This document shows, one piece after another, positions 114 to 62,973 of a stretch of 64,000 nt of DNA. This DNA comes from Elusimicrobia bacterium RIFOXYD2_FULL_34_15 (GTDB taxonomy: Bacteria > Elusimicrobiota > UBA8919). The position numbers were made by a program, and so were the translations under genes. How positions within the stretch are numbered: position 1 is the stretch's first letter; each line of letters begins with the position of its first letter. The stretch spans positions 12,694 to 76,693 of the forward strand of contig MGVS01000097.1 of assembly GCA_001800605.1 (NCBI GenBank). The letters are read 5' to 3'. The notes under the pieces were generated by a model. That model was not told where the DNA came from, searched no databases, and saw only the letters and a program-made list of their open reading frames with translations.

Positions 114-174
114 ATTACACAGATTAAAACAAAGATTACACAGATTAGGTCACGATTGTAGTATCTGTGTAATC
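114..174. repeat. Cluster of the dispersed 12-mer: GATTACACAGAT at 114-125 and 134-145 (21 bp spacing), and its inverse ATCTGTGTAATC at 163-174, forming an inverted pair
   Basis: Exact 12-mer matches read directly from the sequence. Located between nusB and the ligA start. Confidence 0.8.
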
Positions 175-194
175 GCCTTTCAAAATCGGCGTAA

Positions 195-626
195 TCAGTG
201 ATTGTTGGGTTTTTCAACAACCACATCTCTTAAACCTTTTATCTTATCCAAAATGCCGTTAACAAATTTTCCGGAATTTTCCGTAGAAAAATCCTTTGCA
301 AGTTCTATCGCTTCATTTATTACAACGTTAGGGGGTGTTTCTGGTGTATAAAGCAATTCGTAAGAAGCAAGCCGTAAAATAGCTCTGTCGATTGATGCCA
401 TTCTGTCTAAATCCCAATTTTCAGCTATTTTTTTCAGATACTCATCTATTTCATTAAGATTACTTATTGTTCCGTCAACTAATTCATTAGCAAAAGAAAC
501 TACATCCCTGTCATAATCATTTGTACTCCAGAATGCTTTTTCGGCTTCTTCTTTACTAACCTTACACACATCTACCGCGTAAAGTATTTGCATTGTACTT
601 TCACGTGACAATCTTCTTGAACCCAT
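195..626 (-). CDS. nusB: Transcription antitermination factor NusB
   Basis: 143 aa. NusB-family sequence. Classic ribH-nusB linkage. Confidence 0.9.
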   Translation of the reverse strand: MGSRRLSRESTMQILYAVDVCKVSKEEAEKAFWSTNDYDRDVVSFANELVDGTISNLNEIDEYLKKIAENWDLDRMASIDRAILRLASYELLYTPETPPNVVINEAIELAKDFSTENSGKFVNGILDKIKGLRDVVVEKPNNH

Positions 627-659: not shown

Positions 660-845
660 GAAGATTTAATGGCTAGATTTAATCTGTGCCCGCCACTGAT
701 ACTTTGGCGGGTAAATAATCTCTTTTTCTAATCTGTGTAATCTTGCACACGGAGCTCGCCCGCCTGACTAGCGAAGTCGGGCAGGTAGCTACTGCAACGA
801 GCGAGTATGCAATCCCGATTTATCGGGATAATACCTCTTAATCCC
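660..845. repeat. Composite intergenic element: GC hairpin cccgccactgatactttggcggg, then ATCTGTGTAATC at 731-742, a variable core, and the perfect 7-2-7 inverted repeat TCCCGAT-TT-ATCGGGA followed by ATAATACCTCTT
   Basis: Both ends are shared almost exactly with 60455-60550. Confidence 0.7.
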
Positions 846-1310
846 CTATATTATAGCATTTAAATTTGCCATTTCCATAGCCATATTGGCAGCTTCCGCA
901 CCTTTATTACCGGATTTTGTTCCTGCTCTCTCAATTGCCTGTTCAAGATTCTCTGTTGTTAGTACGCCAAAAATTATCGGTATACCGGTTTTCAGCCCTG
1001 TTGATGCAATACCTTTTGTCACTTCAGATGCGATGTAATCAAAATGAGGTGTGTCGCCCTTTATTACAGCACCAAGGCAAATAACCGCATCGTATTTTTT
1101 TGATGATGCAAGTTTACTTGCAAAAAAAGGAATTTCAAAAGATCCAGGCACCCACACGATATCAATGTTTTTATCGTCTGCATCATGCCTTTTCAATGAA
1201 TCTAAGCATCCGCTTAGTAGTTTAGATGTAATAAATTCATTAAATCTTGAAACTACTATAGCAAATTTTAAACCTTTTGCAACCAGCTTACCTTCAAAAA
1301 CCTTACCCAT
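846..1310 (-). CDS. ribH: 6,7-dimethyl-8-ribityllumazine synthase
   Basis: Lumazine synthase homology from MGKVFEG onwards. The ORF-track start at 1349 adds 13 residues that are just the translation of the GC-rich repeat at 1323-1397, so the start is moved to 1310. Confidence 0.88.
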
Positions 1311-3220: not shown

Positions 3221-3273
3221 AAACTCACCAATTAACCTATCTACCCTTCTACCTTTTTACCTTTCTACCTAAG

Positions 3274-4399: not shown

Positions 4400-4427
4400 A
4401 AACAAAATACTACTTACTGCACTATTC

Positions 4428-4545
4428 TCTTCTTTCATCCGGACTTTACCGTCGGTATCTGAGTTTCACAGATTCGATCCCATATTTTTTATGGGACTCG
4501 CGGACTTTAACCGCCGATTGGGAATTTCACCCAACCCCGAAGAGT
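4428..4545 (-). promoter_or_regulatory. FMN riboswitch (RFN element) aptamer controlling the rib operon
   Basis: Minus strand reads cttcggggttgGGTGAAATTCCCaatCGGCGGTtAAAGTCCGCGAGtcccat...atgggaTCgAATCtGTGAAAcTCaGAtaCCGACGGTaAAAGTCCGGATGaAAGAaGAGA. This matches the conserved RFN core blocks. A TATAAT lies about 12 nt upstream. Confidence 0.85.
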
Positions 4546-4576
4546 TTTAACTACGATTATAACGATTTTAAAATCT

Positions 4577-10437: not shown

Positions 10438-10519
10438 AATATTTTAACTTCAATTCAAAATTAAAAATGTAAAATGTAAAATTTAGGAATAAAACCTTAA
10501 TTTATATTTTTTCCGCTAC

Positions 10520-10592
10520 TAAACCATCAGCGGATCCGCCCCCGCCACTGATACTCTGGCGGGCAAGAACGACTTAGTGGCGGAAACTTTTA
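10520..10592. repeat. GC-rich palindromic element (ccgccactgatactctggcgg ... cttagtggcgg)
   Basis: Same family as 690-712, 11488-11537, 47074-47106 and 61004-61050. Confidence 0.7.
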
Positions 10593-10622
10593 ATTTTAAA
10601 TTTTAAATTGTCTTTATTAGAT

Positions 10623-11414: not shown

Positions 11415-11487
11415 AAGCACCCCATAAATTAAACAAGTTAAAATTGAAAGTGAAAAACTAAAAATGAATGTAAAAACCTTCATTTTT

Positions 11488-11537
11488 CCGCCACTGTGAC
11501 TTTGGCGGATCCGCCTACAACTTAGTGGCAGAAACTT
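11488..11537. repeat. GC-rich palindromic element (ccgccactgtgactttggcgg ... cttagtggcag)
   Basis: Family member, see 10520-10592. Confidence 0.7.
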
Positions 11538-11556
11538 TTAATTTGCTTTTTTGCCT

Positions 11557-14813: not shown

Positions 14814-14912
14814 ATTATTAAATATTTAATAAATACTCTTATCAACCACAGTTATTTTTTCTTTTTCCTTCAATGCGCTCGTTACTCATTACCCATTACC
14901 CGTTACTTCTTA

Positions 14913-22149: not shown

Positions 22150-22215
22150 AGAGTTATCGAATTTACTATTACTCATTACCCATTACCCAGCCTGTCCCGA
22201 CTCATCGGGATTACT
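22150..22215. repeat. RPE-like palindromic element ...cattacccattACCCAGCCTGTCCCGActcaTCGGGATTACtCGTTAC...
   Basis: 38-nt core shared with 36385-36440 and, in inverse orientation, with 49218-49274 inside the cca gene. Confidence 0.8.
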
Positions 22216-24676
22216 CGTTACTGACTTTTGTTTCAGAATATATAGTATTAAATATAAGTTTTTTTAACTCAAACGAATAATCTACATTTATTTTAGTGCT
22301 CTTTGGCATTTTTTTAACAAGAAGTTCTTCCGCAAGCCCATCCTCAAGATATTTTGAAATTACCCTGTTTAACGGACGTGCACCATATTGCGAGTCAAAA
22401 CCCTTTTCAAGCAGAAAATTCTTAGCGGGTTCTGTTAATTCTATTACAAAACCCTGTTGTTTGGTCTTTTTTAGTACCCTTTCGAGCATTATATCCAGAA
22501 TTTTCCGCATATGTTCTTTTTCTAACGGATGGAAAACAATAGTATCATCCAAGCGGTTCAAAAATTCAGGATTAAGCGTTTTCTTTAATTCTTCTATCAC
22601 GGTTTCTTTCATTGATAAAAAATCTTTCTGTGTATTACTATCGGGCTGTGTCATAAAACCAAGCGATTTACCTTTAGATATCTGGCGTGCACCAATATTA
22701 GAAGTCATCAAAATTATTGTATTTTTAAAATCAACTTTATGACCAAGGTTATCAGTTAAAATACCGGTATCCATTATCTGTAATAGAATATTCAGCACAT
22801 CAGGGTGCGCCTTTTCTATCTCATCCAAAAGAACCACAGAATAAGGTTTACGCCTTACCTGTTCGGTAAGCTGACCGCCTTCATCATAACCCACGTAACC
22901 GGGAGGTGCGCCTATAAGATGTGAAACAGAAAATTTTTCCATATATTCAGACATATCAAAACGCACCAACGCATCTTCGTGACCGAACATAAATTCTGCG
23001 AGTGCCCTTGCAAGTTCAGTTTTTCCAACACCAGTTGGTCCCAGAAAAATAAAAGCGCCTATAGGTCTTCTCGGATCTTTTAGACCGGTTCTGGTCCGTC
23101 TTATTGCATGAGAAATAGAAACAACCGCCTCATCCTGGCCTATAATCCTTCTATGTAATTCATCTTCCATTTTTAATAATCTTTCTGATTCTTTCTCGGT
23201 CAACTTCATAAGTGGGATATTTGTCCATTTAGAAACTATATTCGCAACATCCTCACCATTAATTGTTGGTTTTATATGGCTTAAACCCTGTCTCCACTTT
23301 TTTCTTTCTTCAGCTAATACTCTTCTAAGTTCTTCTTCTTTATCTCTCAATTTGGCTGCTTTTTCAAATTCCTGTGAATTAACGGATTTGTCTTTGTCGA
23401 CAACAATATTTTCAATTTCTATTTCCTTGTCTTTAAGTTCCTGCGGTAACGAAGTAAGATTAAGATGAGCTCTGCTTCCTGCTTCATCGACTAAATCAAT
23501 AGCTTTATCCGGTAAATATCTCTCGGTTATATACCTATCCGACAGTTCAACCGCTGCTGAAATAGCTTCATCGGTATATTTTACTTTATGATGTGACTCA
23601 TATTTTTCTTTTAGACCGTGCAGAATTTTTATTGTTTCTTCTACCGACGGCGGATTAACCGTTATCGGCTGAAATCTTCTTTCAAGTGCAGCATCGTGCT
23701 CAATATACTTCCTATATTCCGAGAATGTTGTCGCCCCGATGCATTGTAGTTCACCCCGTGCTAACGGCGGTTTTAACATATTCGATGCATCGATAGCACC
23801 CTCTGCAGCACCGGCACCGATTACCGTGTGTAATTCATCGATAAAAATAATTATGCTATTTTTCGACTGTCTTATTTCGTCAATAATATTTTTTAACCGT
23901 TGCTCAAATTCACCCCTGTATTTTGTACCCGCTACCACACCTGACAAATCAAGAGTAACTATTCTTTTGTTCAAAAGAATTTCCTGGGTATCCTGGTTGA
24001 CAATTCTCTGGGCCAAACCTTCTACAATAGCTGTCTTACCAACACCAGGATCTCCCACTAAAACAGGATTATTTTTTGTCCGTCTTGATAACACTTGAAT
24101 CAATCTGTCGATTTCATTATCTCTGCCGATAACAGGATCGAGTTTGCCCTCTCTCGCCATTTCAGTTAAATCCCTACCAAATTCATCAAGGGTTGGCGTC
24201 TTTGACTTATGTTTATGCTGTGGTAACGGTGGTTGTGATGTTTCTCCCATAAGATTAATAATCTCTTCTTTTACAATGTCATATGAAAGTCCGAAATTTT
24301 CCAAAACAACGGTTGTTTTCAATTCGGTATTTTTCAAAAGTCCTAAAAGAATATGCTCCGTTCCGACATAACTGTGCGCCATTTTCTGTGCTTCTTCTAT
24401 TGAATATTCCAATACTTTTCTTGCTTTCGGAGTTAGAGGTAATTCGCCGTATTGAAGTAAATTATCTCCCAGTGGCAGGGTTTTTTCTATTTCTATTCTT
24501 ATACGCGAAGTATGTATTCCAAGATTTGCTATTATCGTAGCTGCTACACCATCGTCAAGATCAAGCAATCCCAATAATATATGTTCGGGAGTAATAAAAT
24601 CGTGGTTTAATCTCTTCGCCTCTTCCTGCGCAAGTCGTATTACCCTTTGTGCTCTTTCTGTAAATCTATTATACAT
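22211..24676 (-). CDS. clpC: ATP-dependent Clp protease ATP-binding subunit ClpC
   Basis: 821 aa. Two Clp_N repeats, a UVR motif and two AAA+ modules. Confidence 0.9.
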   Translation of the reverse strand: MYNRFTERAQRVIRLAQEEAKRLNHDFITPEHILLGLLDLDDGVAATIIANLGIHTSRIRIEIEKTLPLGDNLLQYGELPLTPKARKVLEYSIEEAQKMAHSYVGTEHILLGLLKNTELKTTVVLENFGLSYDIVKEEIINLMGETSQPPLPQHKHKSKTPTLDEFGRDLTEMAREGKLDPVIGRDNEIDRLIQVLSRRTKNNPVLVGDPGVGKTAIVEGLAQRIVNQDTQEILLNKRIVTLDLSGVVAGTKYRGEFEQRLKNIIDEIRQSKNSIIIFIDELHTVIGAGAAEGAIDASNMLKPPLARGELQCIGATTFSEYRKYIEHDAALERRFQPITVNPPSVEETIKILHGLKEKYESHHKVKYTDEAISAAVELSDRYITERYLPDKAIDLVDEAGSRAHLNLTSLPQELKDKEIEIENIVVDKDKSVNSQEFEKAAKLRDKEEELRRVLAEERKKWRQGLSHIKPTINGEDVANIVSKWTNIPLMKLTEKESERLLKMEDELHRRIIGQDEAVVSISHAIRRTRTGLKDPRRPIGAFIFLGPTGVGKTELARALAEFMFGHEDALVRFDMSEYMEKFSVSHLIGAPPGYVGYDEGGQLTEQVRRKPYSVVLLDEIEKAHPDVLNILLQIMDTGILTDNLGHKVDFKNTIILMTSNIGARQISKGKSLGFMTQPDSNTQKDFLSMKETVIEELKKTLNPEFLNRLDDTIVFHPLEKEHMRKILDIMLERVLKKTKQQGFVIELTEPAKNFLLEKGFDSQYGARPLNRVISKYLEDGLAEELLVKKMPKSTKINVDYSFELKKLIFNTIYSETKVSNE

Positions 24677-29525: not shown

Positions 29526-29545
29526 ATTATTTTTAACAGAATTTA

Positions 29546-29579
29546 ATCTGTGTAATCATCCTCTCTTATCTGTGTAATC
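29546..29579. repeat. Two direct copies of ATCTGTGTAATC, 22 bp apart, immediately upstream of the prfB start
   Basis: Exact 12-mers at 29546-29557 and 29568-29579. Confidence 0.8.
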
Positions 29580-29607
29580 AGAGATTGTTTCGCTTTAAAC
29601 AATCTCA

Positions 29608-30825
29608 CTATTTTAACAATTCGTTCAAATCTATATTTTTTAAACCGATATATTTATCAAAATCTGCATCAGTATCCTGGTGTGATCCTCTTATTTTATT
29701 TGCCTCATTCATATTCATTAAAAATACATCCAAAATATCGGGATCAAAATGCTTTCCTCTGCTTTCTTCCAGTATACTAATCACTTTCTCTTCAGGAAAA
29801 GGTTCCTTGTAACACCTTTTAGAGGAAAGTGCATCAAAAACATCCACAATCGCTACAATTCTACCTTCTATAGGAATTGCTTTGCTTTTCAAACCCTGCG
29901 GATAACCTGTCCCGTCAAATTTCTCATGATGCGTTAATGCAACAATTCTTGACTTTTTCAGAACCTCAGCATCAGAATCTTTTAATACAACCGCTCCTAT
30001 AACACAATGCTGTTCCATTACTTTCCTTTCTTCCGGCGTAAGTATCCCGGGTTTCTGCAATATGCTATCCGGAATACCCAACTTGCCTATATCGTGCATA
30101 GGAACTGCCCAAAAAAGAAGCTCAGCTTCTTCTTTTGAATAGCCTAGTTTCTGAGCAATAAGTTTTGCATAATGACTTACCCTCTTAATATGATTTGCAG
30201 TTTCTTTATCCCTGAACTCAGCCGCAGCGCTTAACTTAAAAATAGTATCCAAATGTGCATTTTTTAAATCATCAGTAAGTTCTGCATTCTGAATTGATAC
30301 CGCTGCCTGCGAAGAAAAAGAAGAAGTAATCTTCTGATGTGCTTCGGTAAAGGGCACAACACTATCGCCAGAAGTGGAATTTATTAATTGAAGTACACCT
30401 ATAATTTTTCTATCACGATTTAACATCGGAAGGACAAGCATGGAAACGGTTTCATAACCGTATTTTTTATCAATTGCCGAATTATAATGAAATTCTGAAT
30501 CAGAAGGTAAATTTCCAACATCAGGGATGTTTAATGCTTTTGCGGTAAGAGCAACATATCCTGCAATACTGTCTTTTGTTATCGGCATTTCAAAACTTCT
30601 GAAAATCTCCCGGGTTTTTGCTTCACCCCATCTTTTAAAATAGGTATTCGAACGGCTTGTCTTAAAAACAAGTTTATCTCCATTAACAAGGTATATTGAA
30701 CCGCTATCAGCATTAGTTAATAGCTGTGCTTCACAAAGAATCTTATCTAAAAGTTCGTCTAATTCCCGGACACCAGAAAGTGCGATTCCAATATCCAACA
30801 ATTTTTCGAAATCTTGTGTTAACAT
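29608..30825 (-). CDS. GAF-domain / HD-GYP cyclic-di-GMP phosphodiesterase-like protein
   Basis: 405 aa. HD motif ...HDIGK... and HHEKFDGTGYP, which is the GYP signature. Confidence 0.85.
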   Translation of the reverse strand: MLTQDFEKLLDIGIALSGVRELDELLDKILCEAQLLTNADSGSIYLVNGDKLVFKTSRSNTYFKRWGEAKTREIFRSFEMPITKDSIAGYVALTAKALNIPDVGNLPSDSEFHYNSAIDKKYGYETVSMLVLPMLNRDRKIIGVLQLINSTSGDSVVPFTEAHQKITSSFSSQAAVSIQNAELTDDLKNAHLDTIFKLSAAAEFRDKETANHIKRVSHYAKLIAQKLGYSKEEAELLFWAVPMHDIGKLGIPDSILQKPGILTPEERKVMEQHCVIGAVVLKDSDAEVLKKSRIVALTHHEKFDGTGYPQGLKSKAIPIEGRIVAIVDVFDALSSKRCYKEPFPEEKVISILEESRGKHFDPDILDVFLMNMNEANKIRGSHQDTDADFDKYIGLKNIDLNELLK

Positions 30826-33048: not shown

Positions 33049-33174
33049 AACATTTGGCAAAGCTTACGCTTTGCTGCTACATATTTCAGAACTCCCTCAT
33101 TTCTATGAACTACGAACTCTTTATTTGCATTTTCCACCTCCCTCTCTCTCGAAGAGACCCGTTTATACGGGACT

Positions 33175-33345
33175 AATAACAAATAGGTTTCCTGACTTAG
33201 GTTTTTTGGAATTTCACCTTCCCAGTTCGCCATAGCGACCAGTGGCATTTAAAATTCCCTGCTCCAAATCATTGGAGCATCACCATTACAGTAGCGGGAC
33301 TGTTCCCGAATTTTATCCTTAGACTCCGCTCAGGATAAGCACGGG
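33175..33345 (-). promoter_or_regulatory. Cobalamin (AdoCbl) riboswitch aptamer
   Basis: Minus strand reads ...AAttcGGGAAcaGTCCCGCtACTGTaAtgg...GCCACTGGtcgctatggcgaaCTGGGAAGGTGAAATTCC...AAGTCAGGAaACCTatt. These are the conserved cobalamin-riboswitch core blocks (the CCCGC.ACTGT block, GCCACTG, GGGAAGG, and a B12 box at 33183-33198). Confidence 0.72.
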
Positions 33346-33370
33346 ATTCTCTATTTTGTTAATTTTTATA

Positions 33371-34096
33371 TCACTTTATATTTAACAATATTAACACTAA
33401 CACTTCTGAAATTTCGTTTATCGCACCTAAAGTATCACCGGTAATACCGTTTATTTTCTTTTTAACATATTTTGTAAATATATATGAGAATACTGAAATA
33501 AACAGAAATATTATAATACCTTTAAATTGAAAAACAAAGGTAGTTATTAAAAATGTAATTATTCCTGATATAACAAAATCTTTTTTTGAAATATTACTTA
33601 AAAAGTAATTTCCCAAACCGGTTTCCTTTGCCGGTTTTGATATTCCCATTGATAAAACCATAGCCCATCTTCCAAGAACCGGAAACAAAATTAAAGATGA
33701 ATTGAACAAAGCAGTATCAATATTATTTAATAAAACAAATTTTGAAAGTATTACCAATGCAATACCAATAACTCCCATAGTACCGATATGACTATCATTC
33801 ATAACTTCTAGTATTTCATCTTTATTTTTTCCGGCATATAAACCGTCAAGCGAATCTGCTAGTCCGTCTAAATGCAAACCACCGTTAATTATTATTGTTA
33901 CGGTAATAATCAATAAATCAACTACTATTTTATAAAACACAAATGAGCAACCAAATTTAATTAGAACAAGAATTCCGCCGATAAAAAGTCCGACAACCGG
34001 GAAAAAAGGCAATATATGTTTTATCCCCTGCCTGTATTTTTTTGGCACAGGTATTATTGTCAGAAAACTAATAGCTGAAAATAAATAATTAATCAT
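33371..34096 (-). CDS. cobS: Adenosylcobinamide-GDP ribazoletransferase (cobalamin synthase)
   Basis: 241 aa polytopic membrane protein. Begins MINYLFSAISFLTIIPVP with the conserved DGLAD...GDxxG motif. Confidence 0.88.
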   Translation of the reverse strand: MINYLFSAISFLTIIPVPKKYRQGIKHILPFFPVVGLFIGGILVLIKFGCSFVFYKIVVDLLIITVTIIINGGLHLDGLADSLDGLYAGKNKDEILEVMNDSHIGTMGVIGIALVILSKFVLLNNIDTALFNSSLILFPVLGRWAMVLSMGISKPAKETGLGNYFLSNISKKDFVISGIITFLITTFVFQFKGIIIFLFISVFSYIFTKYVKKKINGITGDTLGAINEISEVLVLILLNIK

Positions 34097-34139
34097 AAAT
34101 TTGCTTACCTTTTACCCGTTACCCATTACTCGTTACCCG

Positions 34140-35207
34140 TTACTGTTTTGTACTTACTCCTGCACTCTCAAATGTCGCCATCTCATCTAAAATTTTAAGC
34201 GAAACATCTATTAAATTCATTGCTAATGCTGAACCCGTTCCTTCACCTAACCGCATACCTAAATTTAAAAGCGGTTTTAAATTTAAATATTCAAGCATAA
34301 TTCTATGCCCTGGCTCTTTTGAACTATGCGCTGCAATCCAATACTGTTTAGCTAATGGTGAAATTTTGTCAGCTATCAAAGCGGCTGCTCCGGATATAAA
34401 GCCATCGATAACAACAGGTATTTTGTAGCTTGCACCTGCAATCATTATACCTGCTAAACCGCCGATTTCATATCCGCCTATCTTTGATAAAATATCGATT
34501 CCGTCATTAAAATCCGGTTTATTTTTTTCTATACCTCTTTTTATAACATCAATTTTATTTTGTAATGCTTTATCATCAATACCTGTTCCCCTGCCGGTTA
34601 CTTTTTCAGGTTCAATATTACAAATCACCGATGCTATGGCTGCAGATGGCGTTGTATTTCCTATGCCCATATCACCCGTTCCAATCAAATCTATTCCGCC
34701 ATTTTTAACTTCTTCTTCAACAAGTTCAATACCTATCTCAATTGACTTAATCGCTTCTTCTCTTGTCATTGCAGGTCCTTTAGTAAAATTCTTCGTCCCA
34801 AAACCAATTTTTTTAACTTTTAACTTTTCACTTTTAACTTGCAGTTCTTCTCCTACTCCCATATCCACAACAACTACTTTTGCTCCAACATGCCTTGCAA
34901 GAACATTTACTCCAGCACCGCCGTTTATAAAATTGTAAACCATCTGGGGTGTTACTTCTTTTGGATATGCGGAAACCCCTTCCTCAACAACGCCGTGGTC
35001 CCCTGCAAGCGTAAAAATAGTTTTATTTTTCAATGAGGGCTTATCTTTTCCTATAATTGCAACTATTTGTTTTGCAACATCTTCGAGTTGTCCCAAAGAA
35101 CCAAGCGGTTTAGTTAAACTATCAAGCCGTTTTTGAGTTTTATCTAAAAGTACTTTATCTAGCGGTTTAGTATTCCTAATAATTTCTTCTATTTTCTTAC
35201 TTGTCAT
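34140..35207 (-). CDS. cobT: Nicotinate-nucleotide--dimethylbenzimidazole phosphoribosyltransferase
   Basis: 355 aa. CobT fold with GEGTG and GGAA motifs. Confidence 0.88.
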   Translation of the reverse strand: MTSKKIEEIIRNTKPLDKVLLDKTQKRLDSLTKPLGSLGQLEDVAKQIVAIIGKDKPSLKNKTIFTLAGDHGVVEEGVSAYPKEVTPQMVYNFINGGAGVNVLARHVGAKVVVVDMGVGEELQVKSEKLKVKKIGFGTKNFTKGPAMTREEAIKSIEIGIELVEEEVKNGGIDLIGTGDMGIGNTTPSAAIASVICNIEPEKVTGRGTGIDDKALQNKIDVIKRGIEKNKPDFNDGIDILSKIGGYEIGGLAGIMIAGASYKIPVVIDGFISGAAALIADKISPLAKQYWIAAHSSKEPGHRIMLEYLNLKPLLNLGMRLGEGTGSALAMNLIDVSLKILDEMATFESAGVSTKQ

Positions 35208-35881: not shown

Positions 35882-36402
35882 TTTAGTCTCCTTTTTATAC
35901 CTGAAATAAAAAAGTAAAATTCGTTTGAATCCTTAGCAAGTATCTGATTTACCCTGCCGATTATATCCCTGAAATCTCTTCCCAATTTATATGGCGGCAC
36001 AACCCCCATCCCCACTTCATTTGAAACTAAAATAACTTTTCCTTTAATTTTCCGCAGTTTTTTAATTAGATTTTTAATATTTTCTATTATCTTATCTTCA
36101 GTATATTTCTTAAACATCCAATTTGAAACTAAGAAAGTTACACAATCAACAATAACACAATCCGCTTTTTCAAACGATTTTAAATGTTTTATAATATCCT
36201 CTGTCTCTTCAATCGTTTTCCAATGTTTTGGCCTTGATTCTTTATGAACTAAAATTCTCTTATTCATTTCTCTATCCGTTATCTTACCGGCAGTTGCAAT
36301 AAAAACAACTTCTTTGCATTTTTCGGCAAGTTCCAAAGCAAAAGTACTCTTCCCTGACCTCACCCCGCCCGATATAAATATAATTTTTCCCATTTTACCC
36401 AT
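35878..36402 (-). CDS. cobU: Adenosylcobinamide kinase / adenosylcobinamide-phosphate guanylyltransferase
   Basis: About 171 aa. P-loop GGVRSGKS. The first ATG overlaps the repeat, so the likely start is the second Met at 36393. Confidence 0.85.
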   Translation of the reverse strand: MGKMGKIIFISGGVRSGKSTFALELAEKCKEVVFIATAGKITDREMNKRILVHKESRPKHWKTIEETEDIIKHLKSFEKADCVIVDCVTFLVSNWMFKKYTEDKIIENIKNLIKKLRKIKGKVILVSNEVGMGVVPPYKLGRDFRDIIGRVNQILAKDSNEFYFFISGIKRRLK

Positions 36403-36440
36403 TACCCAGCCTGTCCCGATGCATCGGGATTACCCGTTAC
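36385..36440. repeat. RPE-like palindromic element, second copy (ttacccattACCCAGCCTGTCCCGAtgcaTCGGGATTACcCGTTAC)
   Basis: See 22150-22215 and 49218-49274. Confidence 0.8.
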
Positions 36441-37224
36441 TTGTTTTATCCCATTGCGGCACCGATAAAATATGCGGTTTACCCGAAACAGGGTTTTTAT
36501 TTACAACAACAACCGTTTTATAAACATATTCTATATTCTGATAAGTCATAACCTCTTCAGGATTGCCCTCTTTATAAATAGCACCGTTTCTCAAAAGTAA
36601 AATCCTGTCGCAATATTCGCTGGCAAGATTCAAATCATGCATAACTATAATAACAGTAACTTTTTTTTCTATATTTAACCTTTTAATAATATCCAAAATT
36701 TCTATCTGATGGCTTATATCCAAATGTGAAGTCGGTTCATCAAGCAATATAAACTTTGATTGCTGGCAAAGTGCACGCGCAATTACAACCCTCTGTTTTT
36801 CTCCGGAAGAAAGTTCATTTATATATCTTTCGGAAAGTCCTTCAATTTCCAGAAGCTTCAAACTTTCTTCAGCAATTTTAAAACCCTCTTCTTCTTCACT
36901 TAAAAATTGCTTCTGGTACGGATATCTTCCCATCAGAACAATTTCTTTTACAGTAAACGCAAATGTCGTATCAACCTCTTCCGGAACAAAAGAAATATTT
37001 CTAGCCCTTTCTTTGGGTTTCATTTTATAAATATCTTTTTCATCCAGTAAAACTTCACCATTTTGAGGATGATAAAATCCGGAAATTGCTCTTAATAACG
37101 TTGATTTTCCGCTTCCGTTCGGACCTATAATACCAACAAATTCATAGTCGGAAACAGTTAAATTTACATCATTAACAGCAACAAAATTATCGTATTTAAC
37201 TACCAAATCATTAACTTTTAACAT
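36430..37224 (-). CDS. btuD: ABC transporter ATP-binding protein, FecE/BtuD type
   Basis: 264 aa. Walker A GPNGSGKST and LSSGEKQRV signature. The C-terminus reads into the repeat element. Confidence 0.85.
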   Translation of the reverse strand: MLKVNDLVVKYDNFVAVNDVNLTVSDYEFVGIIGPNGSGKSTLLRAISGFYHPQNGEVLLDEKDIYKMKPKERARNISFVPEEVDTTFAFTVKEIVLMGRYPYQKQFLSEEEEGFKIAEESLKLLEIEGLSERYINELSSGEKQRVVIARALCQQSKFILLDEPTSHLDISHQIEILDIIKRLNIEKKVTVIIVMHDLNLASEYCDRILLLRNGAIYKEGNPEEVMTYQNIEYVYKTVVVVNKNPVSGKPHILSVPQWDKTSNG

Positions 37225-38215
37225 TTTTTTTCAATAATAAATAAATAAAAAACGGGACTCCGGTTAGAGCTGTTACGACGCCAACAGGCACTTCAAAAGG
37301 CGAAAAAAGAGTTCTCGATACCGTATCAGCTGTAACTAAAAAACAGCTCCCTAACAAAAAAGATACAACAAGAAATCTTTTATAATTTGCTCCGACAAAT
37401 ACTCTTGCTATATGAGGAATAATCAAGCCCATAAAACCAATAACACCGCTTACTGCGACAATGCTTCCTATTATTATCGAAGAAATAAAAAAAAGAATCC
37501 ATTTTATCTTTTCTACATTTACACCCAGATGATATGCCGTCTCTTCTCCTTGTGAAATGATATTTAATTCGTCTGAATAAAGAAAACTCAAAACAAATCC
37601 GATTAAAACTAAAATCCCTGAAACAATAATAAGTTTTATATTGTTTTCCTGTAAAGAACCCATCAAAAAAAATATTATGTCCTGTGAATCCTGGTAAAAA
37701 ATAGACATCAACAAAAGTACAATCGCATTTGTAAATATATTAACAATAACTCCGGAAAGTATCAAAACCTCTACTTTTGTCTGGCCATGGACTTTTCCGA
37801 TTGAGTATGCAACAATCGTTGATATCGCACTACCGATAATTGCAAGAGGATATATCGCCGAATACGGTAATTTTAAAACAATACCTGTTGCAACACCGAC
37901 TGCAGCACCGCCTGAAGCTCCGAGAATATACGGGTCAGCAAGCGGGTTTTTAGTAATACCCTGGAGTATAGCTCCTGACAAGGCCAGCCCGCAACCCACA
38001 ATCATCCCAAGTATAATTCTTGGCAACCTAATCTTGTAAATAATATCGTAATTTATACCATCAGTTGAACCGAAAAATAAGGAAACAAAAGATATTCCTA
38101 CAAGCAAAATAACTAAAACTAAAACAACTTTTATATATCTTTTATTTGCAACCATAAATTTATTTTTTAGCGTTGAAAAGTCATTACGCTCTTGATTACG
38201 GGGATTTAATGACAT
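37211..38215 (-). CDS. btuC: FecCD-family ABC permease (BtuC-like)
   Basis: 334 aa, about 9 TM helices. FecCD family. Confidence 0.85.
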   Translation of the reverse strand: MSLNPRNQERNDFSTLKNKFMVANKRYIKVVLVLVILLVGISFVSLFFGSTDGINYDIIYKIRLPRIILGMIVGCGLALSGAILQGITKNPLADPYILGASGGAAVGVATGIVLKLPYSAIYPLAIIGSAISTIVAYSIGKVHGQTKVEVLILSGVIVNIFTNAIVLLLMSIFYQDSQDIIFFLMGSLQENNIKLIIVSGILVLIGFVLSFLYSDELNIISQGEETAYHLGVNVEKIKWILFFISSIIIGSIVAVSGVIGFMGLIIPHIARVFVGANYKRFLVVSFLLGSCFLVTADTVSRTLFSPFEVPVGVVTALTGVPFFIYLLLKKNVKS

Positions 38216-38224
38216 GCCCTAACC

Positions 38225-38275
38225 TGCCTACCGTCAGGCAGGTCTGTGTAATCTCTTTTCTTAATCTGTGTAATC
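38225..38275. repeat. cctgcctaccgtcaggcagg hairpin followed by two copies of (A/G)TCTGTGTAATC, 22 bp apart, immediately upstream of btuC
   Basis: 12-mers at 38242-38253 and 38264-38275. Confidence 0.8.
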
Positions 38276-39095
38276 AGTGATTTTTGGATTTTTCAAAAAT
38301 CACTTTATACAAAATATCCATACCTTCAATAATTCGCGGTCCGGGCCTTAAAAATATATCAGGATTGATATTTGCAATTATTCTATTATTTTTTACAGCA
38401 TCAACCGATTCCCATCCCCGCCTTAAAACATTATCCTTATCCTGCATACTTAGAACAACAATCCATTCCGGGTTCTTATTAATTATTGATTCTGCGGTTA
38501 TCTGACAATACGGCAAGGGTAAATCTTTAAAAACATTCTCACAACCGACAATATCAAAAATATCATTTATAAAAGTATCTTTGTTCACTGTCATAAATGG
38601 TTTCGAATAAATCTCAATAAACACCCTTGGTTTCTTTTTGATTTTTTCTGTTTTACTTTTATAATAATTAATTTTACCTTTAATTTTATTAACTAATGAT
38701 TCAGCTTCTTTATTTCTTCCTGTAACATCTCCGATTTTTTTTATAGAAACTATAATCCCTTTAATCGTTTTTGGGTCAACACAAAATATATTAAGTCCTA
38801 GACCTTTCAGTTTTTGATTTAATTTATTTTGCTCCTGATCTGTTGTAAAAATAATATCCGGCTTTAGTGAAAATATCTTTTCAATATCCGGATTACTAAA
38901 TGAACCCACCTTTTCTTTGTTTTTTACTTCAGGCGGATAATTGCAATAAGTTGTAACCGCTACAATATTTTTATCCAGGCCTAATGCAAATAAAATCTCG
39001 GTTGTTGCAGGAGTAAGGGAAATTATTCTCATTTCTTTTTCCGCAAAAAGAAAATCCCCATATAAAAATAAACAAAGTATTATTAAATTCTTCAT
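38274..39095 (-). CDS. btuF: Periplasmic corrinoid/siderophore-type substrate-binding protein (BtuF-like)
   Basis: The class III SBP fold begins at MKNLIILCLFLYGDFLFA, a signal peptide. The track start at 39185 adds 30 residues that are repeat-derived, so the start is moved to 39095. Confidence 0.8.
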   Translation of the reverse strand: MKNLIILCLFLYGDFLFAEKEMRIISLTPATTEILFALGLDKNIVAVTTYCNYPPEVKNKEKVGSFSNPDIEKIFSLKPDIIFTTDQEQNKLNQKLKGLGLNIFCVDPKTIKGIIVSIKKIGDVTGRNKEAESLVNKIKGKINYYKSKTEKIKKKPRVFIEIYSKPFMTVNKDTFINDIFDIVGCENVFKDLPLPYCQITAESIINKNPEWIVVLSMQDKDNVLRRGWESVDAVKNNRIIANINPDIFLRPGPRIIEGMDILYKVIFEKSKNH

Positions 39096-39784: not shown

Positions 39785-39800
39785 AGTTTGCTCCCTTATT

Positions 39801-39958
39801 AACCCGCCACTGATGCGCCTCCGCCAGTTGGCGGATGGCGGACCGTTGCATGCCCACCTACGCTTTCTTGTCCGCCAAAGTTTCAGTGGCGGAAGTGGCG
39901 GAAGTTGTGGGGCGGGTTAACCCGCCACTGATGCGTTGGCGGGTTAATTTTTGGCAAA
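39801..39958. repeat. Cluster of GC-rich palindromic elements (cccgccactgatgcg..., ccgccaaagtttcagtggcggaagtggcgg, cccgccactgatgcgttggcggg)
   Basis: Multiple CCGCC...GGCGG hairpins. Shares a family with 40177-40231 and 1323-1397. Confidence 0.7.
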
Positions 39959-39960
39959 GC

Positions 39961-40135
39961 CAAAAATTAAAAAAACCTAGCTCTGAGAAGAGTTAGGCTA
40001 ACTAAACTTTCTCCCCTCGGAGTTTTCGTAACTGATAGACCGGGCTTTACCGTTGCGGGGCAGCTTCCGAATTCCCATTTATACTGAGCAACGTCGAACG
40101 TATCAATGGGTCACGGAATTCCTTCAATTACAAAT
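39961..40135 (-). ncRNA. Candidate structured leader RNA, possibly a divergent cobalamin-type riboswitch, ending in an intrinsic terminator, upstream of the cobO-btuFCD-cobU-cobT-cobS operon
   Basis: Minus strand reads ttgaaGGaattCCgtg...tatAAatGGGAAttcGGaaGctgCCCCGCaACgGTaAAGcccgg... This partly resembles the GGGAA...CCCGC.ACTGTAA core of cobalamin riboswitches. It ends in CCTAaCTCTtctcAGAGcTAGG plus TTTTTTTAATTTTTT (39961-39996). No clear B12 box. Confidence 0.35.
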
Positions 40136-40176
40136 TATTTTAAAAACGATTAAAACTGATTAAAAGAACTGATTAT

Positions 40177-40231
40177 TCACCCGCCAAAGATTCCTTGTCC
40201 GCCGATGTTTTAGTGGCGGAAGTGGTGGGCA
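40177..40231. repeat. GC-rich palindromic element (ccgccaaagattccttgtccgccgatgttttagtggcggaagtggtggg)
   Basis: Family member, see 39801-39958. Confidence 0.65.
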
Positions 40232-40282
40232 TAGATTATTATATAAAAATCAAAAAACAAGTCAAGTGAAAAAAATTTATAC

Positions 40283-40340
40283 TGCCGCCTTTGGCGAGCC
40301 TCGCCCCCTTGGGGCGGGAGCCAAACCAAGTCGAAGTATC
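40283..40340. repeat. Direct repeat copy 1 (ctgccgcctttggcgagcctcgcccccttggggcgggagcc...agtcgaagtatc)
   Basis: About 85% identical to 45623-45685. Together they bracket the PHP-PhoH2-RNase J-GIY-YIG block. Confidence 0.75.
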
Positions 40341-46942: not shown

Positions 46943-47013
46943 GAGCGGGTGATGGGAATCGAACCCACGTTTCAAGCTTGGGAAGCTTGCATACTACCAT
47001 TGTACTACACCCG
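46943..47013 (-). tRNA. tRNA-Gly (anticodon CCC)
   Basis: Minus strand: GCGGGTGTAGTACAATGGTAGTATGCAAGCTTCCCAAGCTTGAAACGTGGGTTCGATTCCCATCACCCGCT. 7-bp acceptor stem, anticodon loop TTCCCAA, T-loop GGTTCGATTCC. Confidence 0.85.
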
Positions 47014-47073
47014 CAGAAATTCAATTAAAAATTAAAAATTAGAAATTCAAAATTGTGGTTGTTTTTTATTTAA

Positions 47074-48167: not shown

Positions 48168-49610
48168 TTATTTGGTTTTTACAATAGTTTTTAGAAATTT
48201 TATTGCTTCTTCCCTTGTTTTTACTTCTTTAGTTACTTGCGATTCTTCAAGTTTTTTAAGTAATTGTCCGACTTCAGGACCTTGTTCAATTTTTAATATT
48301 TTCATTATTTCATTACCATTTAAAAGTTTTACAGGAAGTATCTTTTCTTTTTTATAAAAATACTTATTCAGCAATTTATTGCCGACTATTCTGTGAAGTG
48401 TCCGTATATTACTTGGTGGATACGTATAAGCATCGCAGATTGATAAAACAATCTGATCTATACCATCTTCACCTAAATCCTTAAAAAATCTCCATACAGC
48501 TTTATCGGTTACTTCTTTTGCACTTGTAAGGTTTCCTAAACGCATATGGTTCTGGATAACTTTTTTTATATATTTTATTTCGTCATTTGAAAACCTTAAC
48601 CTTTTCCCTATTTTATCAATCATTTTGCTTCCCACATCTTCATGCCCGAAAAATCTCAATCTATCACCAATTTTTTCGGCAGATCCGGGTTTTCCTATAT
48701 CGTGTAAAAGCACCGCGTATTTCAAAATTGTTTTCCTTTTTACTGTTCTTGAAATATTACCGTCAAGATGCATCATTATTTTTTTATTGAATCTTGGAAA
48801 AATGTTTTTAAAATTATTTTTATAAAACTTCTCGAGCACTTTCAATGAATCAAAACAATGCCCCAGAAGCCCCATTTTGGGGTAATAACACCTTGCTGTA
48901 TGCCTGGTCGGAATTAACTCCGGAAATATATAATCCAATAATTTCGAATTATGCATTTTCAATATAATGGAATGACTATCTGATAATCCCATTATTAGAT
49001 TTAATTCGTAACTTATTCTTTCTACAGATACTTTTTTTATATATTTCGCATATTTTTTTATAAATTTTTCTGTTTTTGGTTCAATTTTAAAATTTAATTG
49101 CCCGGCAAACCTGTACGCTCTTAAAACTCTTAACGGATCATCAACAAAGTTTTTTTCTTCAATACATCTTATAACCTTGTTCTTTATATCAACTCGTCCA
49201 TCATAAGGATCAATAAGATCGGTAACGGGTAACGCGTAATCCCGAGAAGTCGGGACAGGCTGGGTAATGGGTATCGCAATGGCATTGATAGTAAAATCAC
49301 GTCTTGTTAAATCTTCGATAATATTTTTGCCCTGCATTTTTGAGAAATCGAAGGTTTTGCCATTAATAATCACACGGTAAATTTTGTTGAAGTCGTCTAA
49401 AATTATGAATTTTCCTTTTACTTTTTCGGCAAATGTTTGTGCAACTTTCTGCGTATTGCCGTCAGTAACAAAATCCATATCTTCCGAGATTTTATTAAAA
49501 TACAAATCCCTGATATAGCCCCCGACAATCCAGATATTTTCTTTAGTTTTTAAGTATTTTAATATATCAATATTATTCATAAATAACCTTGCACTATCAC
49601 CCCACCCCAC
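48168..49610 (-). CDS. cca: CCA-adding enzyme / tRNA nucleotidyltransferase (Pol-beta head plus HD domain) carrying an in-frame repeat-element insertion
   Basis: 480 aa. GGYIRD...D.D, the RRDFTINAIA motif and the HD domain LLHDIGK. An extra 19-aa loop (IPITQPVPTSRDYALPVTD) lies between INAIA and LIDPYDG. Confidence 0.85.
   Translation of the reverse strand: MGWGDSARLFMNNIDILKYLKTKENIWIVGGYIRDLYFNKISEDMDFVTDGNTQKVAQTFAEKVKGKFIILDDFNKIYRVIINGKTFDFSKMQGKNIIEDLTRRDFTINAIAIPITQPVPTSRDYALPVTDLIDPYDGRVDIKNKVIRCIEEKNFVDDPLRVLRAYRFAGQLNFKIEPKTEKFIKKYAKYIKKVSVERISYELNLIMGLSDSHSIILKMHNSKLLDYIFPELIPTRHTARCYYPKMGLLGHCFDSLKVLEKFYKNNFKNIFPRFNKKIMMHLDGNISRTVKRKTILKYAVLLHDIGKPGSAEKIGDRLRFFGHEDVGSKMIDKIGKRLRFSNDEIKYIKKVIQNHMRLGNLTSAKEVTDKAVWRFFKDLGEDGIDQIVLSICDAYTYPPSNIRTLHRIVGNKLLNKYFYKKEKILPVKLLNGNEIMKILKIEQGPEVGQLLKKLEESQVTKEVKTREEAIKFLKTIVKTK
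49218..49274. repeat. RPE-like palindromic element inserted in frame within cca (inverse orientation)
   Basis: The reverse complement, atacccattACCCAGCCTGTCCCGActtcTCGGGATTACgCGTTACccgttacc, matches the intergenic copies at 22150-22215 and 36385-36440. It encodes residues 113-131 of Cca. Confidence 0.85.
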
Positions 49611-53728: not shown

Positions 53729-53765
53729 CTGTATCCTGTATCCTGTATCCTGTATTCTGTGTACT
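53729..53765. repeat. Tandem 7-mer repeats (CTGTATC x3, then CTGTATT, CTGTGTA) at the oppB-oppC junction
   Basis: On the coding strand this reads GGATACAG x3, ending 9 nt before the oppC ATG. Confidence 0.7.
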
Positions 53766-54740: not shown

Positions 54741-54798
54741 TTTAAAGGCAGATCACAGTATACAGTACTCAGGATTCAGCTTTATGAATTATAAAAAG

Positions 54799-54842
54799 CT
54801 GTATGCTGTTTTCTGTATTCTGTATCCTGTATCCTGTGTACT
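54799..54842. repeat. Tandem 7-mer repeats (CTGTATG/CTGTTTT/CTGTATT/CTGTATC x2/CTGTGTA) at the oppA-oppB junction, with a partial inverse copy at 54758-54777
   Basis: Forms a potential long hairpin in the oppA-oppB intercistronic region. Confidence 0.65.
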
Positions 54843-60364: not shown

Positions 60365-60550
60365 AGGTCTCGCCAACGCTTTAGTGGTGGACCGAAGGTT
60401 CGCTTATCCCCCTGCGAACCGTAGGCCTCGCCAATGGTTTAGTGGCGGGCTCATTTAAATAATCTGTGTAATCTTGCACTCGAAGTTCGTACCCACTGGA
60501 ACGAACAAGACTGCAATTCCGATTTATCGGAATAATACCTCTTCATCTGC
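60365..60550. repeat. GC-rich palindromic element (60365-60455) followed by a composite element homologous to 660-845: ATCTGTGTAATC at 60462-60473, then TTCCGAT-TT-ATCGGAA and ATAATACCTCTT
   Basis: The inverted repeat covaries with the copy at 815-832 (TCCCGAT-TT-ATCGGGA). Confidence 0.7.
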
Positions 60551-60794: not shown

Positions 60795-60960
60795 TATTCT
60801 CACCTCCCAAATATTCACTCAGGATCTCGTTTCGTCAGCACACGGTCCCCTGGTGGGGCCGTCCCCACTCGTTCCGCTGAATGCGTAAGCGGAACTCCGT
60901 GAGGGCATTCCTCAACGAATCCCTCGTTCACCATTATAAGTCAAAATCTAAATTTCTGCT
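60795..60960 (-). ncRNA. Candidate structured 5' leader (unclassified possible riboswitch) of the RAM-domain gene
   Basis: Minus strand reads TATAATggtgaacgagggattcgttgagg...GTTCCGCttacgcattcaGCGGAAC...GTGGGGacggCCCCAC...GGGAGGtgagaataATG. About 55% GC with several perfect hairpins between a -10-like box and the SD. Confidence 0.2.
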
Positions 60961-61003
60961 TCGCTCACCATTAAAGACTAACCTCTCTGCCTTTCTCCCT
61001 TTT

Positions 61004-61108
61004 CCACCACTAAGACTTTGGCGGACCCGCCTATGGTTCAGTGGCGGGCTACCCTTTTACCTTTTACTCGTTACTCCCGCCATAGGCGGGCAAGCATTAC
61101 CCATTACT
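61004..61108. repeat. GC-rich palindromic elements (ccaccactaagactttggcggacccgcctatggttcagtggcggg ... cccgccataggcgggc) with ttactcgttac / ttacccattac tails
   Basis: Family of 10520-10592, plus the ttacYcRttac module. Confidence 0.7.
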
Positions 61109-62917: not shown

Positions 62918-62973
62918 AAATGCTTTAAACCATGAACTATCGCACCATCCTACCATCCCACAATCGCACTATT

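What the first reader, a model, noticed from the sequence alone, without database searches (positions are those of the whole stretch)
660..845. Composite intergenic element conserved at two loci, with a compensatory change in a perfect 7-2-7 inverted repeat
Loci 660-845 (between ribH and nusB) and 60455-60550 (between the RAM-domain gene and the lysine-tailed gene) share two ends. The 5' block is AATAATCTGTGTAATCTTGCAC-CG. The 3' block is GCAAT(C/T)CCGATTTATCGG(G/A)ATAATACCTCTT.

In the 3' block the inverted repeat is TCCCGAT-TT-ATCGGGA in one copy and TTCCGAT-TT-ATCGGAA in the other. A C-to-T change in the left arm is matched by a G-to-A change in the right arm. This covariation implies selection on a hairpin or on a symmetric protein-binding site.

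Both copies are preceded by a GC-rich CCGCC...GGCGG hairpin element and carry the 12-mer. That gives a modular repeat-plus-regulatory-site architecture.
Basis: seen in the sequence. Interest (0 to 1): 0.55.

Follow-up and report, generated by a model that had tools for sequence, protein, structure and literature searches.

The report
Structured intergenic repeat in an Elusimicrobia genome
The two flagged spacers carry copies of a roughly 90-base, two-hairpin repeat whose stems are preserved by matched base changes; it is a real structured element, but it most likely belongs to the familiar class of small hairpin-forming intergenic repeats rather than being a gene-specific regulatory site.

Summary
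The window comes from the groundwater MAG Elusimicrobia bacterium RIFOXYD2_FULL_34_15, with nearly all genes on the minus strand.

On that strand both copies read: AAGAGGUAUUAU, hairpin A, hairpin B, GAUUACACAGAUUA, then a REP-like hairpin. The "variable" middle is homologous too. The copies differ at 12 of 84 core positions. Eight differences form four compensatory pairs, one per helix. Four lie in loops or bulges. None breaks a pair.

Two further hairpin-B modules lie 3 kb outside the window in the same organism and add more double changes.

The element is absent from the orthologous spacers of relatives (41 bp and 12 bp), and it replaces the last codons of ribH. It is therefore a lineage-specific insertion. 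There is no Rfam match, no terminator tail and no consistent promoter.

The genome's spacers are mosaics of several hairpin families plus short tandem repeats. The 12-mer and the TCCCGA stem recur in other combinations.

Best reading (confidence about 0.55): a new family of REP/BIME/ERIC-like structured interspersed repeats, co-transcribed within operons. A dedicated RNA regulator remains possible (about 0.2). A symmetric DNA operator is unlikely. Only three loci could be examined. Interest is modest.

The parts
828..839 (-). L1 5' block AAGAGGUAUUAU. It is Shine-Dalgarno-like, single-stranded and identical in both copies.
812..829 (-). L1 hairpin A: AUCCCGA-UAAA-UCGGGAU, 7 bp as RNA (8-2-8 as a DNA palindrome).
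744..811 (-). L1 hairpin B: P1 UGCA:UGCA, P1b AC:GU, P2 GCUCGU:A..CGAGC, P3 GC-AGUA-GC.
759..785 (-). 27-nt GC-rich hairpin (CCUGCC..GGCGGG, REP2-like) inserted inside hairpin B, between P3 and the 3' strand of P2. Absent from L2.
   Evidence: (family D7)
729..742 (-). L1 12-mer module GAUUACACAGAUUA. It is followed at 712-728 by a spacer and a degenerate second unit GAUUAUUUA.
689..711 (.). REP1-type hairpin CCCGCCA-N9-UGGCGGG next to L1.
   Evidence: (D4/D6)
850..877 (-). Promoter-like site TGGAAA-16-TGcTATAAT overlapping the ribH stop codon, with a predicted start near the element's 5' end. There is no counterpart at L2.
60532..60543 (-). L2 5' block AAGAGGUAUUAU.
60516..60533 (-). L2 hairpin A: AUUCCGA-UAAA-UCGGAAU, with U-A where L1 has C-G.
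60475..60515 (-). L2 hairpin B: P1 UGCA:UGCA, P1b UC:GA, P2 GUUCGU:ACGAAC, P3 CC-AGUG-GG.
60460..60473 (-). L2 12-mer module GAUUACACAGAUUA.
60424..60450 (.). REP1-type hairpin next to L2, in the opposite orientation to the one at L1.
   Evidence: (D4)
60366..60420 (.). Further hairpins before the GAD-gene start: GGUUCGC..GCGAACC (60397-60420) and a proximal REP1 (60366-60392). The last ~30 nt (CGUUGGCGAGACCUUCGGGGGGAAAGAUG) are shared with the orthologous spacer of RIFOXYC2_FULL_34_12, so they are older than the flagged element.

Best explanation
The flagged sequence is a member of a lineage-specific family of short, hairpin-forming interspersed intergenic repeats in Elusimicrobia bacterium RIFOXYD2_FULL_34_15.

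Read on the gene strand it is AAGAGGUAUUAU, then hairpin A, then hairpin B, then GAUUACACAGAUUA. It sits in a mosaic with REP-like GC hairpins.

Shown: it was inserted into two spacers between co-directional genes. At ribH it overwrote the last codons. Its helices are kept intact by compensatory change.

Inferred: it is transcribed as part of the polycistronic mRNA, because it has no terminator tail and no consistent promoter. There its stable hairpins would act as REP, BIME and ERIC elements do. They would block 3'-to-5' RNA decay and partly attenuate read-through, which uncouples the levels of the upstream and downstream cistrons rather than sensing a signal.

Also inferred: copies spread as non-autonomous DNA, by an unknown route. 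One possibility is a hairpin-recognising single-strand (Y1/RAYT-like) transposase. Another is recombination between the shared modules.
For: Repeat nature:
- Two full copies are 86% identical.
- Two more hairpin-B modules lie in the ligA-mazG spacer of the same organism. The motif TCG[GT]T[GC]CAGTNG[GC] occurs 4 times in about 68 kb of this organism, always on the coding strand, and 0 times in the relatives' loci scanned.

Structure:
- 21 of 21 pairs form in both full copies, with 4 double changes, and all other differences are unpaired.
- For hairpin B across four copies, 94.5% of cells are paired and 8 of 14 pairs have double changes. The covariation score exceeds all 500 shuffles and all slid controls.

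Insertion:
- The orthologous ribH-nusB spacer is 41 bp in three relatives' contigs and holds different hairpins in a fourth.
- The RAM-GAD spacer is 12 bp in one relative and holds a different composite in another.
- ribH ends ..NLNAII* here but ..NLNSQ[LI]K* in relatives.

Mosaic context:
- GC-rich perfect hairpins number about 14 in 5.7 kb of non-coding sequence against about 7 in 58 kb of coding sequence.
- REP1 occurs 6 times against 0 expected, and TCCCGA..TCGGGA 4 times against 0.01 expected.
- The 12-mer doublet recurs behind other hairpins.
- REP-type hairpins are nested inside hairpin B in L1 and L3.

Other:
- No known RNA family matches, and there is no terminator-like site on the gene strand.
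- Published precedent: REPINs have conserved ends, and compensatory changes across the predicted hairpin are common (PMC3116915).
- An E. coli REP acts as both a stabiliser and a partial terminator inside an operon (bioRxiv 10.64898/2026.03.23.713779).
Against: - Only three loci (four hairpin-B modules, two full copies) could be examined. Copy number in the genome is unknown because both large DNA scans returned only chance hits.
- The element lacks the marks of the best-known families: no GTAG or CGTC tag and no terminal inverted repeats. No transposase was found in the window.
- The single-stranded flanks are more conserved than the stems: 0 changes in about 25 unpaired flank positions against 12 in about 59 core positions (counted; my binomial estimate is p about 0.02). 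All loci have the same orientation relative to the genes. Both features also fit a dedicated functional RNA.
- Transcription, RNA-level function and mobility are all untested.
Confidence: 0.55

Rival explanations
1. A dedicated structured RNA. It could be a 5' leader or cis-regulator of the downstream genes (nusB; the GAD-domain, lysine-tailed protein). It could also be a small RNA with its own promoter. Its two hairpins and conserved single-stranded arms would bind a protein or another RNA.
For: - There is covariation in all four helices while the single-stranded flanks are invariant.
- All copies are on the coding strand.
- A strong promoter-like site, TGGAAA-16-TGcTATAAT, ends about 7 nt before the L1 element.
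- The element has no Rfam counterpart, so it would be new.
Against: - There is no promoter-like site at L2 and no terminator.
- The element is absent from the orthologous spacers of all relatives examined.
- The third locus (ligA-mazG) has hairpin B in tandem, lacks hairpin A, and has the 12-mers inverted. The unit is therefore not a fixed RNA.
- Hairpin B tolerates 27-nt and 38-nt insertions.
- The genes downstream of the three loci show no evident common function.
Confidence: 0.2
2. Selfish or neutral palindromic DNA with no function for the cell. The matched changes would arise mechanically, by intra-strand template switching (quasi-palindrome correction) during replication, rather than by selection on an RNA.
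For: - Every change in a pair is Watson-Crick to Watson-Crick. No G-U intermediate occurs in the 42 paired cells or the 55 cells, as expected if DNA hairpins are what is maintained.
- The genome is full of other palindromic modules in both orientations.
- Template switching as a source of compensatory hairpin changes is established knowledge (from my own memory, not checked here).
Against: - Four separate helices each carry a clean double change and there are no half-corrected pairs, which needs repeated precise events.
- The unpaired flanks and loops are conserved more than the stems. A purely mutational process does not explain that.
- The sample is too small for the absence of G-U pairs to be decisive.
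Confidence: 0.15
3. A symmetric operator for a dimeric DNA-binding regulator, centred on ATYCCGAT-AA-ATCGGRAT.
For: - It is a perfect 8-2-8 palindrome in both copies.
- The TCCCGA..TCGGGA stem recurs 4 times in the window against 0.01 expected.
Against: - Matched changes in both half-sites are not required for protein binding, but they are required for a hairpin.
- The recurring TCCCGA stems have different loop lengths and sequences (L002 and L026), which would destroy half-site spacing.
- The adjacent hairpin B covaries in the same way.
- No consistent promoter overlaps the site.
Confidence: 0.05
4. A small protein-coding gene. One frame (GIIPINR[DN]C.L.R.S.Y..LRVQDYTD) is open through both copies, sits behind the SD-like AAGAGGU, and the 27-nt insert in L1 keeps the frame.
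For: The open frame is present in L1 and L2. Five of 14 differing codons are synonymous, the most of any frame.
Against: - There is no ATG, GTG or TTG start. Only AUU or AUC lie 0-3 nt from the SD-like block.
- Another frame on the opposite strand is also open, and a third frame has 4 synonymous differences.
- At the third locus the open frame passes through the two hairpin-B modules in different registers (my reading of the sequence).
- The substitutions are fully explained by base pairing.
- No gene is called there in public assemblies.
Confidence: 0.03

Closest known systems
REP / BIME elements of Enterobacteria and Pseudomonas (including REPINs mobilised by RAYT transposases)
   Same: Both are short GC-richer hairpins confined to spacers, often between co-directional genes. 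They combine into mosaics with other short motifs and can be nested or doubled. The ends are conserved, with hairpin-preserving compensatory changes in between (PMC3116915). In E. coli a REP acts on the operon mRNA as a stabiliser and partial terminator.
   Different: There is no GTAG or CGTC tag. The two ends are not inverted copies of one another. No RAYT gene was seen. The unit is two different hairpins plus direct-repeat 12-mers. The host phylum is Elusimicrobia, and the copy number is unknown.
ERIC/IRU, pneumococcal BOX and Neisseria Correia (NEMIS) elements
   Same: All are 100-150-nt transcribed intergenic repeats that fold into extended imperfect hairpins. BOX has a modular build (boxA-boxB-boxC). 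They are present or absent between close relatives (my own knowledge; see also reviews PMC3184786 and PMC2229807 listed, not read in detail).
   Different: No sequence similarity was tested or is expected. Those elements have terminal inverted repeats or one long palindrome, whereas this one has two independent hairpins and asymmetric ends.
Two-hairpin cis-acting RNAs such as phage HK022 put (processive antitermination)
   Same: Both have two adjacent stem-loops with almost no linker and act in cis within a transcript. The location before nusB is suggestive. This is a resemblance recalled from memory only.
   Different: No sequence or structural homology was tested. The element is not conserved at the locus in relatives and also occurs at unrelated genes.

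Membership tests
REP (GTAG/CGTC-tagged palindromic repeats) | Short (20-40 bp) GC-rich palindromic unit in extragenic DNA | tested here: met
   Hairpin A is an 18-bp palindrome and hairpin B a 41-68-nt imperfect one. Both lie in spacers.
REP (GTAG/CGTC-tagged palindromic repeats) | Conserved GTAG or CGTC tetranucleotide at one end (PMC3733652) | tested here: not met
   The flanks are GGUAUUAU / AUUGCA for hairpin A and AUUGCA / GAUUAC for hairpin B. GTAG occurs only inside the P3 loop of L1 and not in L2.
REP (GTAG/CGTC-tagged palindromic repeats) | High copy number in the genome | not testable with these tools
   Only about 68 kb of this organism was accessible. It holds 2 full copies and 4 hairpin-B modules. 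The genome and metagenome scans gave only chance hits.
REPIN / RAYT system | Two REP units in inverted orientation forming one long hairpin, with a cognate Y1 (RAYT) transposase gene | tested here: not met
   The 5' and 3' ends of the element are not inverted copies of each other. tblastn with a Y1-transposase protein from relative L019 found nothing in the window or L002. The rest of the genome could not be searched. By contrast, the neighbouring REP1 hairpins do form inverted doublets.
MITE | Terminal inverted repeats and target-site duplication | tested here: not met
   AAGAGGTATTAT and the reverse complement of GATTACACAGATTA are unrelated. No duplicated flank is visible at either locus when compared with the empty orthologous sites.
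Any curated RNA family (Rfam 15) | Covariance-model match | tested here: not met
   There were no hits at L1 even at E<=10. At L2 there were only irrelevant sub-threshold hits elsewhere in the spacer.
Intrinsic terminator | GC-rich hairpin followed by a U tract on the transcribed strand | tested here: not met
   Hairpin A is followed by UUGCA and hairpin B by GAUUACAC. The scan found no minus-strand terminator-like site in either region.
Sigma-70 promoter carried by the element | -35 and -10 hexamers at a conserved place in both copies | tested here: inconclusive
   L1 scores 10/12 plus TG at 877-850. L2 has only TATGAT with no -35 and was not called.

The most novel reading that the evidence does not exclude
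The two-hairpin unit with invariant single-stranded arms is a previously undescribed functional RNA or single-strand DNA signal. It could be a recognition module for an unknown RNA-binding protein or nuclease. It could equally be the end structure of a new hairpin-guided mobile element lacking GTAG tags, inverted terminal repeats and a known transposase. In either case it would be one component of an unusually regular intergenic 'grammar' in groundwater Elusimicrobia: hairpins after stop codons, then 7-nt or 12-nt tandem repeats before start codons.
Probability: 0.2. Interest if true: 0.6.

Novelty: new member of a known kind. Interest (0 to 1): 0.33.

Why it matters
If the reading is right, this adds an uncultivated phylum (Elusimicrobia) to the organisms whose operons are punctuated by structured, mobile-like repeats. 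It also offers a clean case in which nearly every difference between copies is either compensatory or unpaired.

Practically, it warns annotators that such covariation does not by itself indicate a riboswitch or an operator. The repeats rewrite gene 3' ends, as with the ribH C-terminus, and may break metagenome assemblies (contigs of this strain are short and one ends inside a repeat-rich spacer).

The broader modular spacer architecture (hairpin families plus heptamer and 12-mer arrays) may be the more interesting subject for follow-up.

Tried and rejected
Searches that found nothing useful:
1. A three-block pattern scan of 185,579 species genomes gave one hit, a coding-region chance match in a Eubacteriales MAG.
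2. The same kind of scan of the metagenome contigs gave 12 hits, none with a hairpin. Neither collection returned the window's own copies, so the source organism is not represented there.
3. A viral-contig scan for hairpin A with its flanks gave 0 hits.
4. Rfam at gathering threshold and at E<=10 gave nothing relevant.
5. Covariance model R1, run on the window with filters off and on 164 kb of fetched loci (relatives plus L002 from this organism), found no further full copy. A weak hit did lead to the L3/L4 modules.
6. Strain-level variation was uninformative. Five contigs from other samples, plus one contig whose NusB is 99% identical, all match the window exactly across L1.
7. Walking beyond the window failed. 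One look-up failed because the start codon was wrong. Another returned only contigs of 1.3-2.4 kb.
8. A count of G-U against A-C mismatches, intended to assign the strand, had too few cases.

Ideas rejected:
9. The small-ORF reading was rejected.
10. By eye only, not formal tests: sigma-54 (TGGCAC-N5-TTGC), a sigma-28 -10 (GCCGATAA resembles CCGATAA in hairpin A, but there is no -35), integron attC (no GTTRRRY), group II intron domain V, hammerhead core, bacterial SECIS and NusB boxA. None fits both copies.

Full report
**Source and orientation**

The NusB and GAD-domain proteins encoded in the window are 100% identical to proteins of "Elusimicrobia bacterium RIFOXYD2_FULL_34_15", a groundwater MAG. 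Nearly all genes lie on the minus strand, so I read the element on that strand.
- L1 lies between the ribH stop (846) and the nusB start (626).
- L2 lies between the stop (60555) of an 87-aa stand-alone AsnC-type ligand-binding (RAM) protein and the start (60352) of a 146-aa GAD-domain protein.

**Observation**

On the gene strand both copies read:

AAGAGGUAUUAU - [AUYCCGA UAAA UCGGRAU] - UUGCA ... UGCAA - GAUUACACAGAUUA, followed by a CCCGCCA-N9-UGGCGGG hairpin.

The 31-nt block occurs twice against 0 expected.

**The middle is not merely variable**

MAFFT aligns the whole unit once a 27-nt GC hairpin present only in L1 is gapped. Separate minimum-free-energy folds of the two copies give the same architecture:
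- Hairpin A has 7 bp and a UAAA loop.
- Hairpin B consists of P1 (UGCA:UGCA), a 2-bp P1b, a pyrimidine-rich internal loop, a 5-6-bp P2 and a 2-bp P3 closing an AGUN loop.

On that structure all 21 pairs form in both copies, and four pairs, one in each helix, are changed on both sides (C-G/U-A, A-U/U-A, C-G/U-A, G-C/C-G). The copies differ at 12 of 84 core positions. Eight are those four pairs, four are in a bulge, the internal loops or the tetraloop, and none disrupts a pair.

Random placement of 12 substitutions leaves every pair intact in 0.18% of trials and never produced four compensatory pairs in 200,000 trials. One caveat is that the structure was derived from these same sequences. The slid-partner controls (20-40% paired, no double changes) show that the signal is specific.

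**More copies**

Both large DNA scans returned only chance matches and did not even return the window's own sequence, so the organism is not in those collections.

A covariance model built from the two copies found no other full copy in the window or in 164 kb of fetched loci. A weak hit led to the ligA-mazG spacer of the same organism, 3 kb beyond the window start (L002).

That spacer holds two tandem hairpin-B modules. The motif TCG[GT]T[GC]CAGTNG[GC] has four occurrences in this organism, all on the coding strand, and none in the relatives' loci scanned. I removed the inserts by hand and aligned the four modules. In that alignment:
- 94.5% of the 55 cells pair.
- 8 of the 14 pairs show double changes; for example, P1 is AAUA:UAUU in one copy against UGCA:UGCA.
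- No shuffle reaches the observed covariation score.

One of these modules also carries a 38-nt insert at exactly the site where L1 has its 27-nt insert. At this third locus hairpin A is missing and the 12-mers are in the opposite orientation. The unit is therefore a combination of modules rather than a fixed RNA.

**It is an insertion**

In contigs whose NusB is 75-76% identical, ribH and nusB are 41 bp apart with no element (L019, L020, L021, L024). In L022 they are 164 bp apart with unrelated hairpins. ribH ends ..NLNSQ[LI]K* in those genomes but ..NLNAII* here, so the inserted DNA replaced the last codons.

The RAM-GAD spacer is 12 bp in L028. In RIFOXYC2_FULL_34_12 (L026 and L027, from two assemblies with identical sequence here) it is 271 bp and holds a different composite. 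Only the last ~30 nt before the start codon are shared with the window. Spacers in this clade thus gain and exchange hairpin modules. Contigs of the same strain from other samples are identical across L1.

**Context**

The window's spacers are mosaics.
- GC-rich perfect hairpins number about 14 in 5.7 kb of non-coding sequence against about 7 in 58 kb of coding sequence.
- REP1 occurs 6 times against 0 expected, in both orientations and as inverted doublets.
- The hairpin-A stem TCCCGA..TCGGGA occurs 4 times against 0.01 expected, with different loops.
- The 12-mer occurs 14 times (2.2 expected) in both orientations. As a doublet with a 21-22-nt period it follows a different, AT-rich hairpin that forms the 3' end and stop codon of three unrelated genes.

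The flagged element is one recurring combination drawn from this toolkit.

**What it is not**
- It is not a known RNA family.
- It is not an intrinsic terminator, since it has no U tract.
- It does not carry a consistent promoter. L1 has a strong TGGAAA-16-TGcTATAAT site just upstream, but L2 has none.
- It has no REP tag and no MITE ends.
- No Y1 transposase is encoded in the window.
- It is unlikely to be a gene. A frame is open through both copies but has no canonical start, and its substitution pattern is explained by pairing.
- A dimeric-operator reading does not predict matched half-site changes or the covariation seen in hairpin B.

**Mechanism**

Shown: a repeated, inserted, two-hairpin element whose pairing is maintained.

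Inferred: it is transcribed with its operon and acts generically as REP, BIME and ERIC elements do. That is, it would act as a barrier to 3' exonucleases and a partial attenuator that uncouples neighbouring cistrons. It would spread as non-autonomous DNA. Conserved ends with a compensating hairpin between them is the pattern reported for REPINs.

Three observations keep the rivals alive. The invariant single-stranded arms and the uniform orientation fit a dedicated RNA. The complete absence of G-U intermediates fits maintenance at the DNA level, including template-switch correction.

With three loci these readings cannot be separated. The full genome and transcript data would decide between them.

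**Verdict**

This is a real, well-supported structured repeat. It is probably a new family of a known kind, of modest interest.

Noticed in passing
window 53729-53765, 54792-54842, 14880-14907, 22167-22194, 34103-34144, 1366-1397, 3221-3273, 62934-62975; L019 17775-17860: Many start codons are preceded, on the coding strand, by purine-rich tandem repeats with a period of about 7 nt: GGAUACA x3-4, GGGUAAU/GAGUAAC, GGUAAAA/AGGUAAA, and CGGUUAU x7 in a relative. GGAUACAGGAUAC resembles the CsrA SELEX consensus RUACARGGAUGU (from memory, untested). A comparable phenomenon, intergenic TAACTGA heptamer arrays, is described for Beggiatoaceae (PMC4679880, listed).
   Followed up: partly
window 150-245, 29533-29628, 38215-38324: A second composite repeat. 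An AT-rich hairpin (GUGRUUKUUG..CAAMAAUCAC) supplies the last codons and the TGA stop of three unrelated genes, nusB among them. It is followed by a doublet of the GAUUACACAGA 12-mer at a 21-22-nt period. The stems differ between copies but stay complementary (D5, 65).
   Followed up: partly
L002 3098-3168 (same organism) and L026 7748-7838 (RIFOXYC2_FULL_34_12): Another element family, CAUUCCCGAAU..AUCGGGAAUCC..GGAUWCC-hairpin-GGWAUGAC, is shared by two species at non-orthologous loci. It folds far better than shuffles in L002 (z = -4.3).
   Followed up: partly
window 22176-22222 and 36395-36441: A 47-nt repeat, 94% identical between the two sites: AGUAACGRGUAA-UCCCGAnnnnUCGGGA-CAGGCUGGGUAAUGGGUAA. 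It uses the same stem as hairpin A with another loop (D20, 68).
   Followed up: no
window 11484-11556, 10438-10622, 39785-40338, 60819-61096: REP1 hairpins (CCGCCA-N9-UGGCGG) often occur as adjacent inverted doublets or nested arrays that could form long REPIN-like hairpins. This suggests a RAYT-type system elsewhere in the genome.
   Followed up: no
window 49240-49255: One TCCCGA-GAAG-TCGGGA hairpin lies inside the coding sequence of the CCA-adding/poly(A) polymerase-family gene (48168-49610).
   Followed up: no
window 4423-4548 (-), 33166-33393 (-), 46943-47014 (-): An FMN riboswitch lies upstream of the rib operon that ends at L1. There is also a cobalamin riboswitch and a tRNA-Gly(CCC).
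   Followed up: no
L031-L035 (window 60.5-63.3 kb region in other assemblies): The accessible contigs of this strain from other samples are only 1.3-2.4 kb. L031 ends about 195 nt past the YjeF_N gene, inside the repeat-rich spacer 60819-61096. This may mean the modules are multi-copy enough to break assemblies; I did not check the other contig ends.
   Followed up: no
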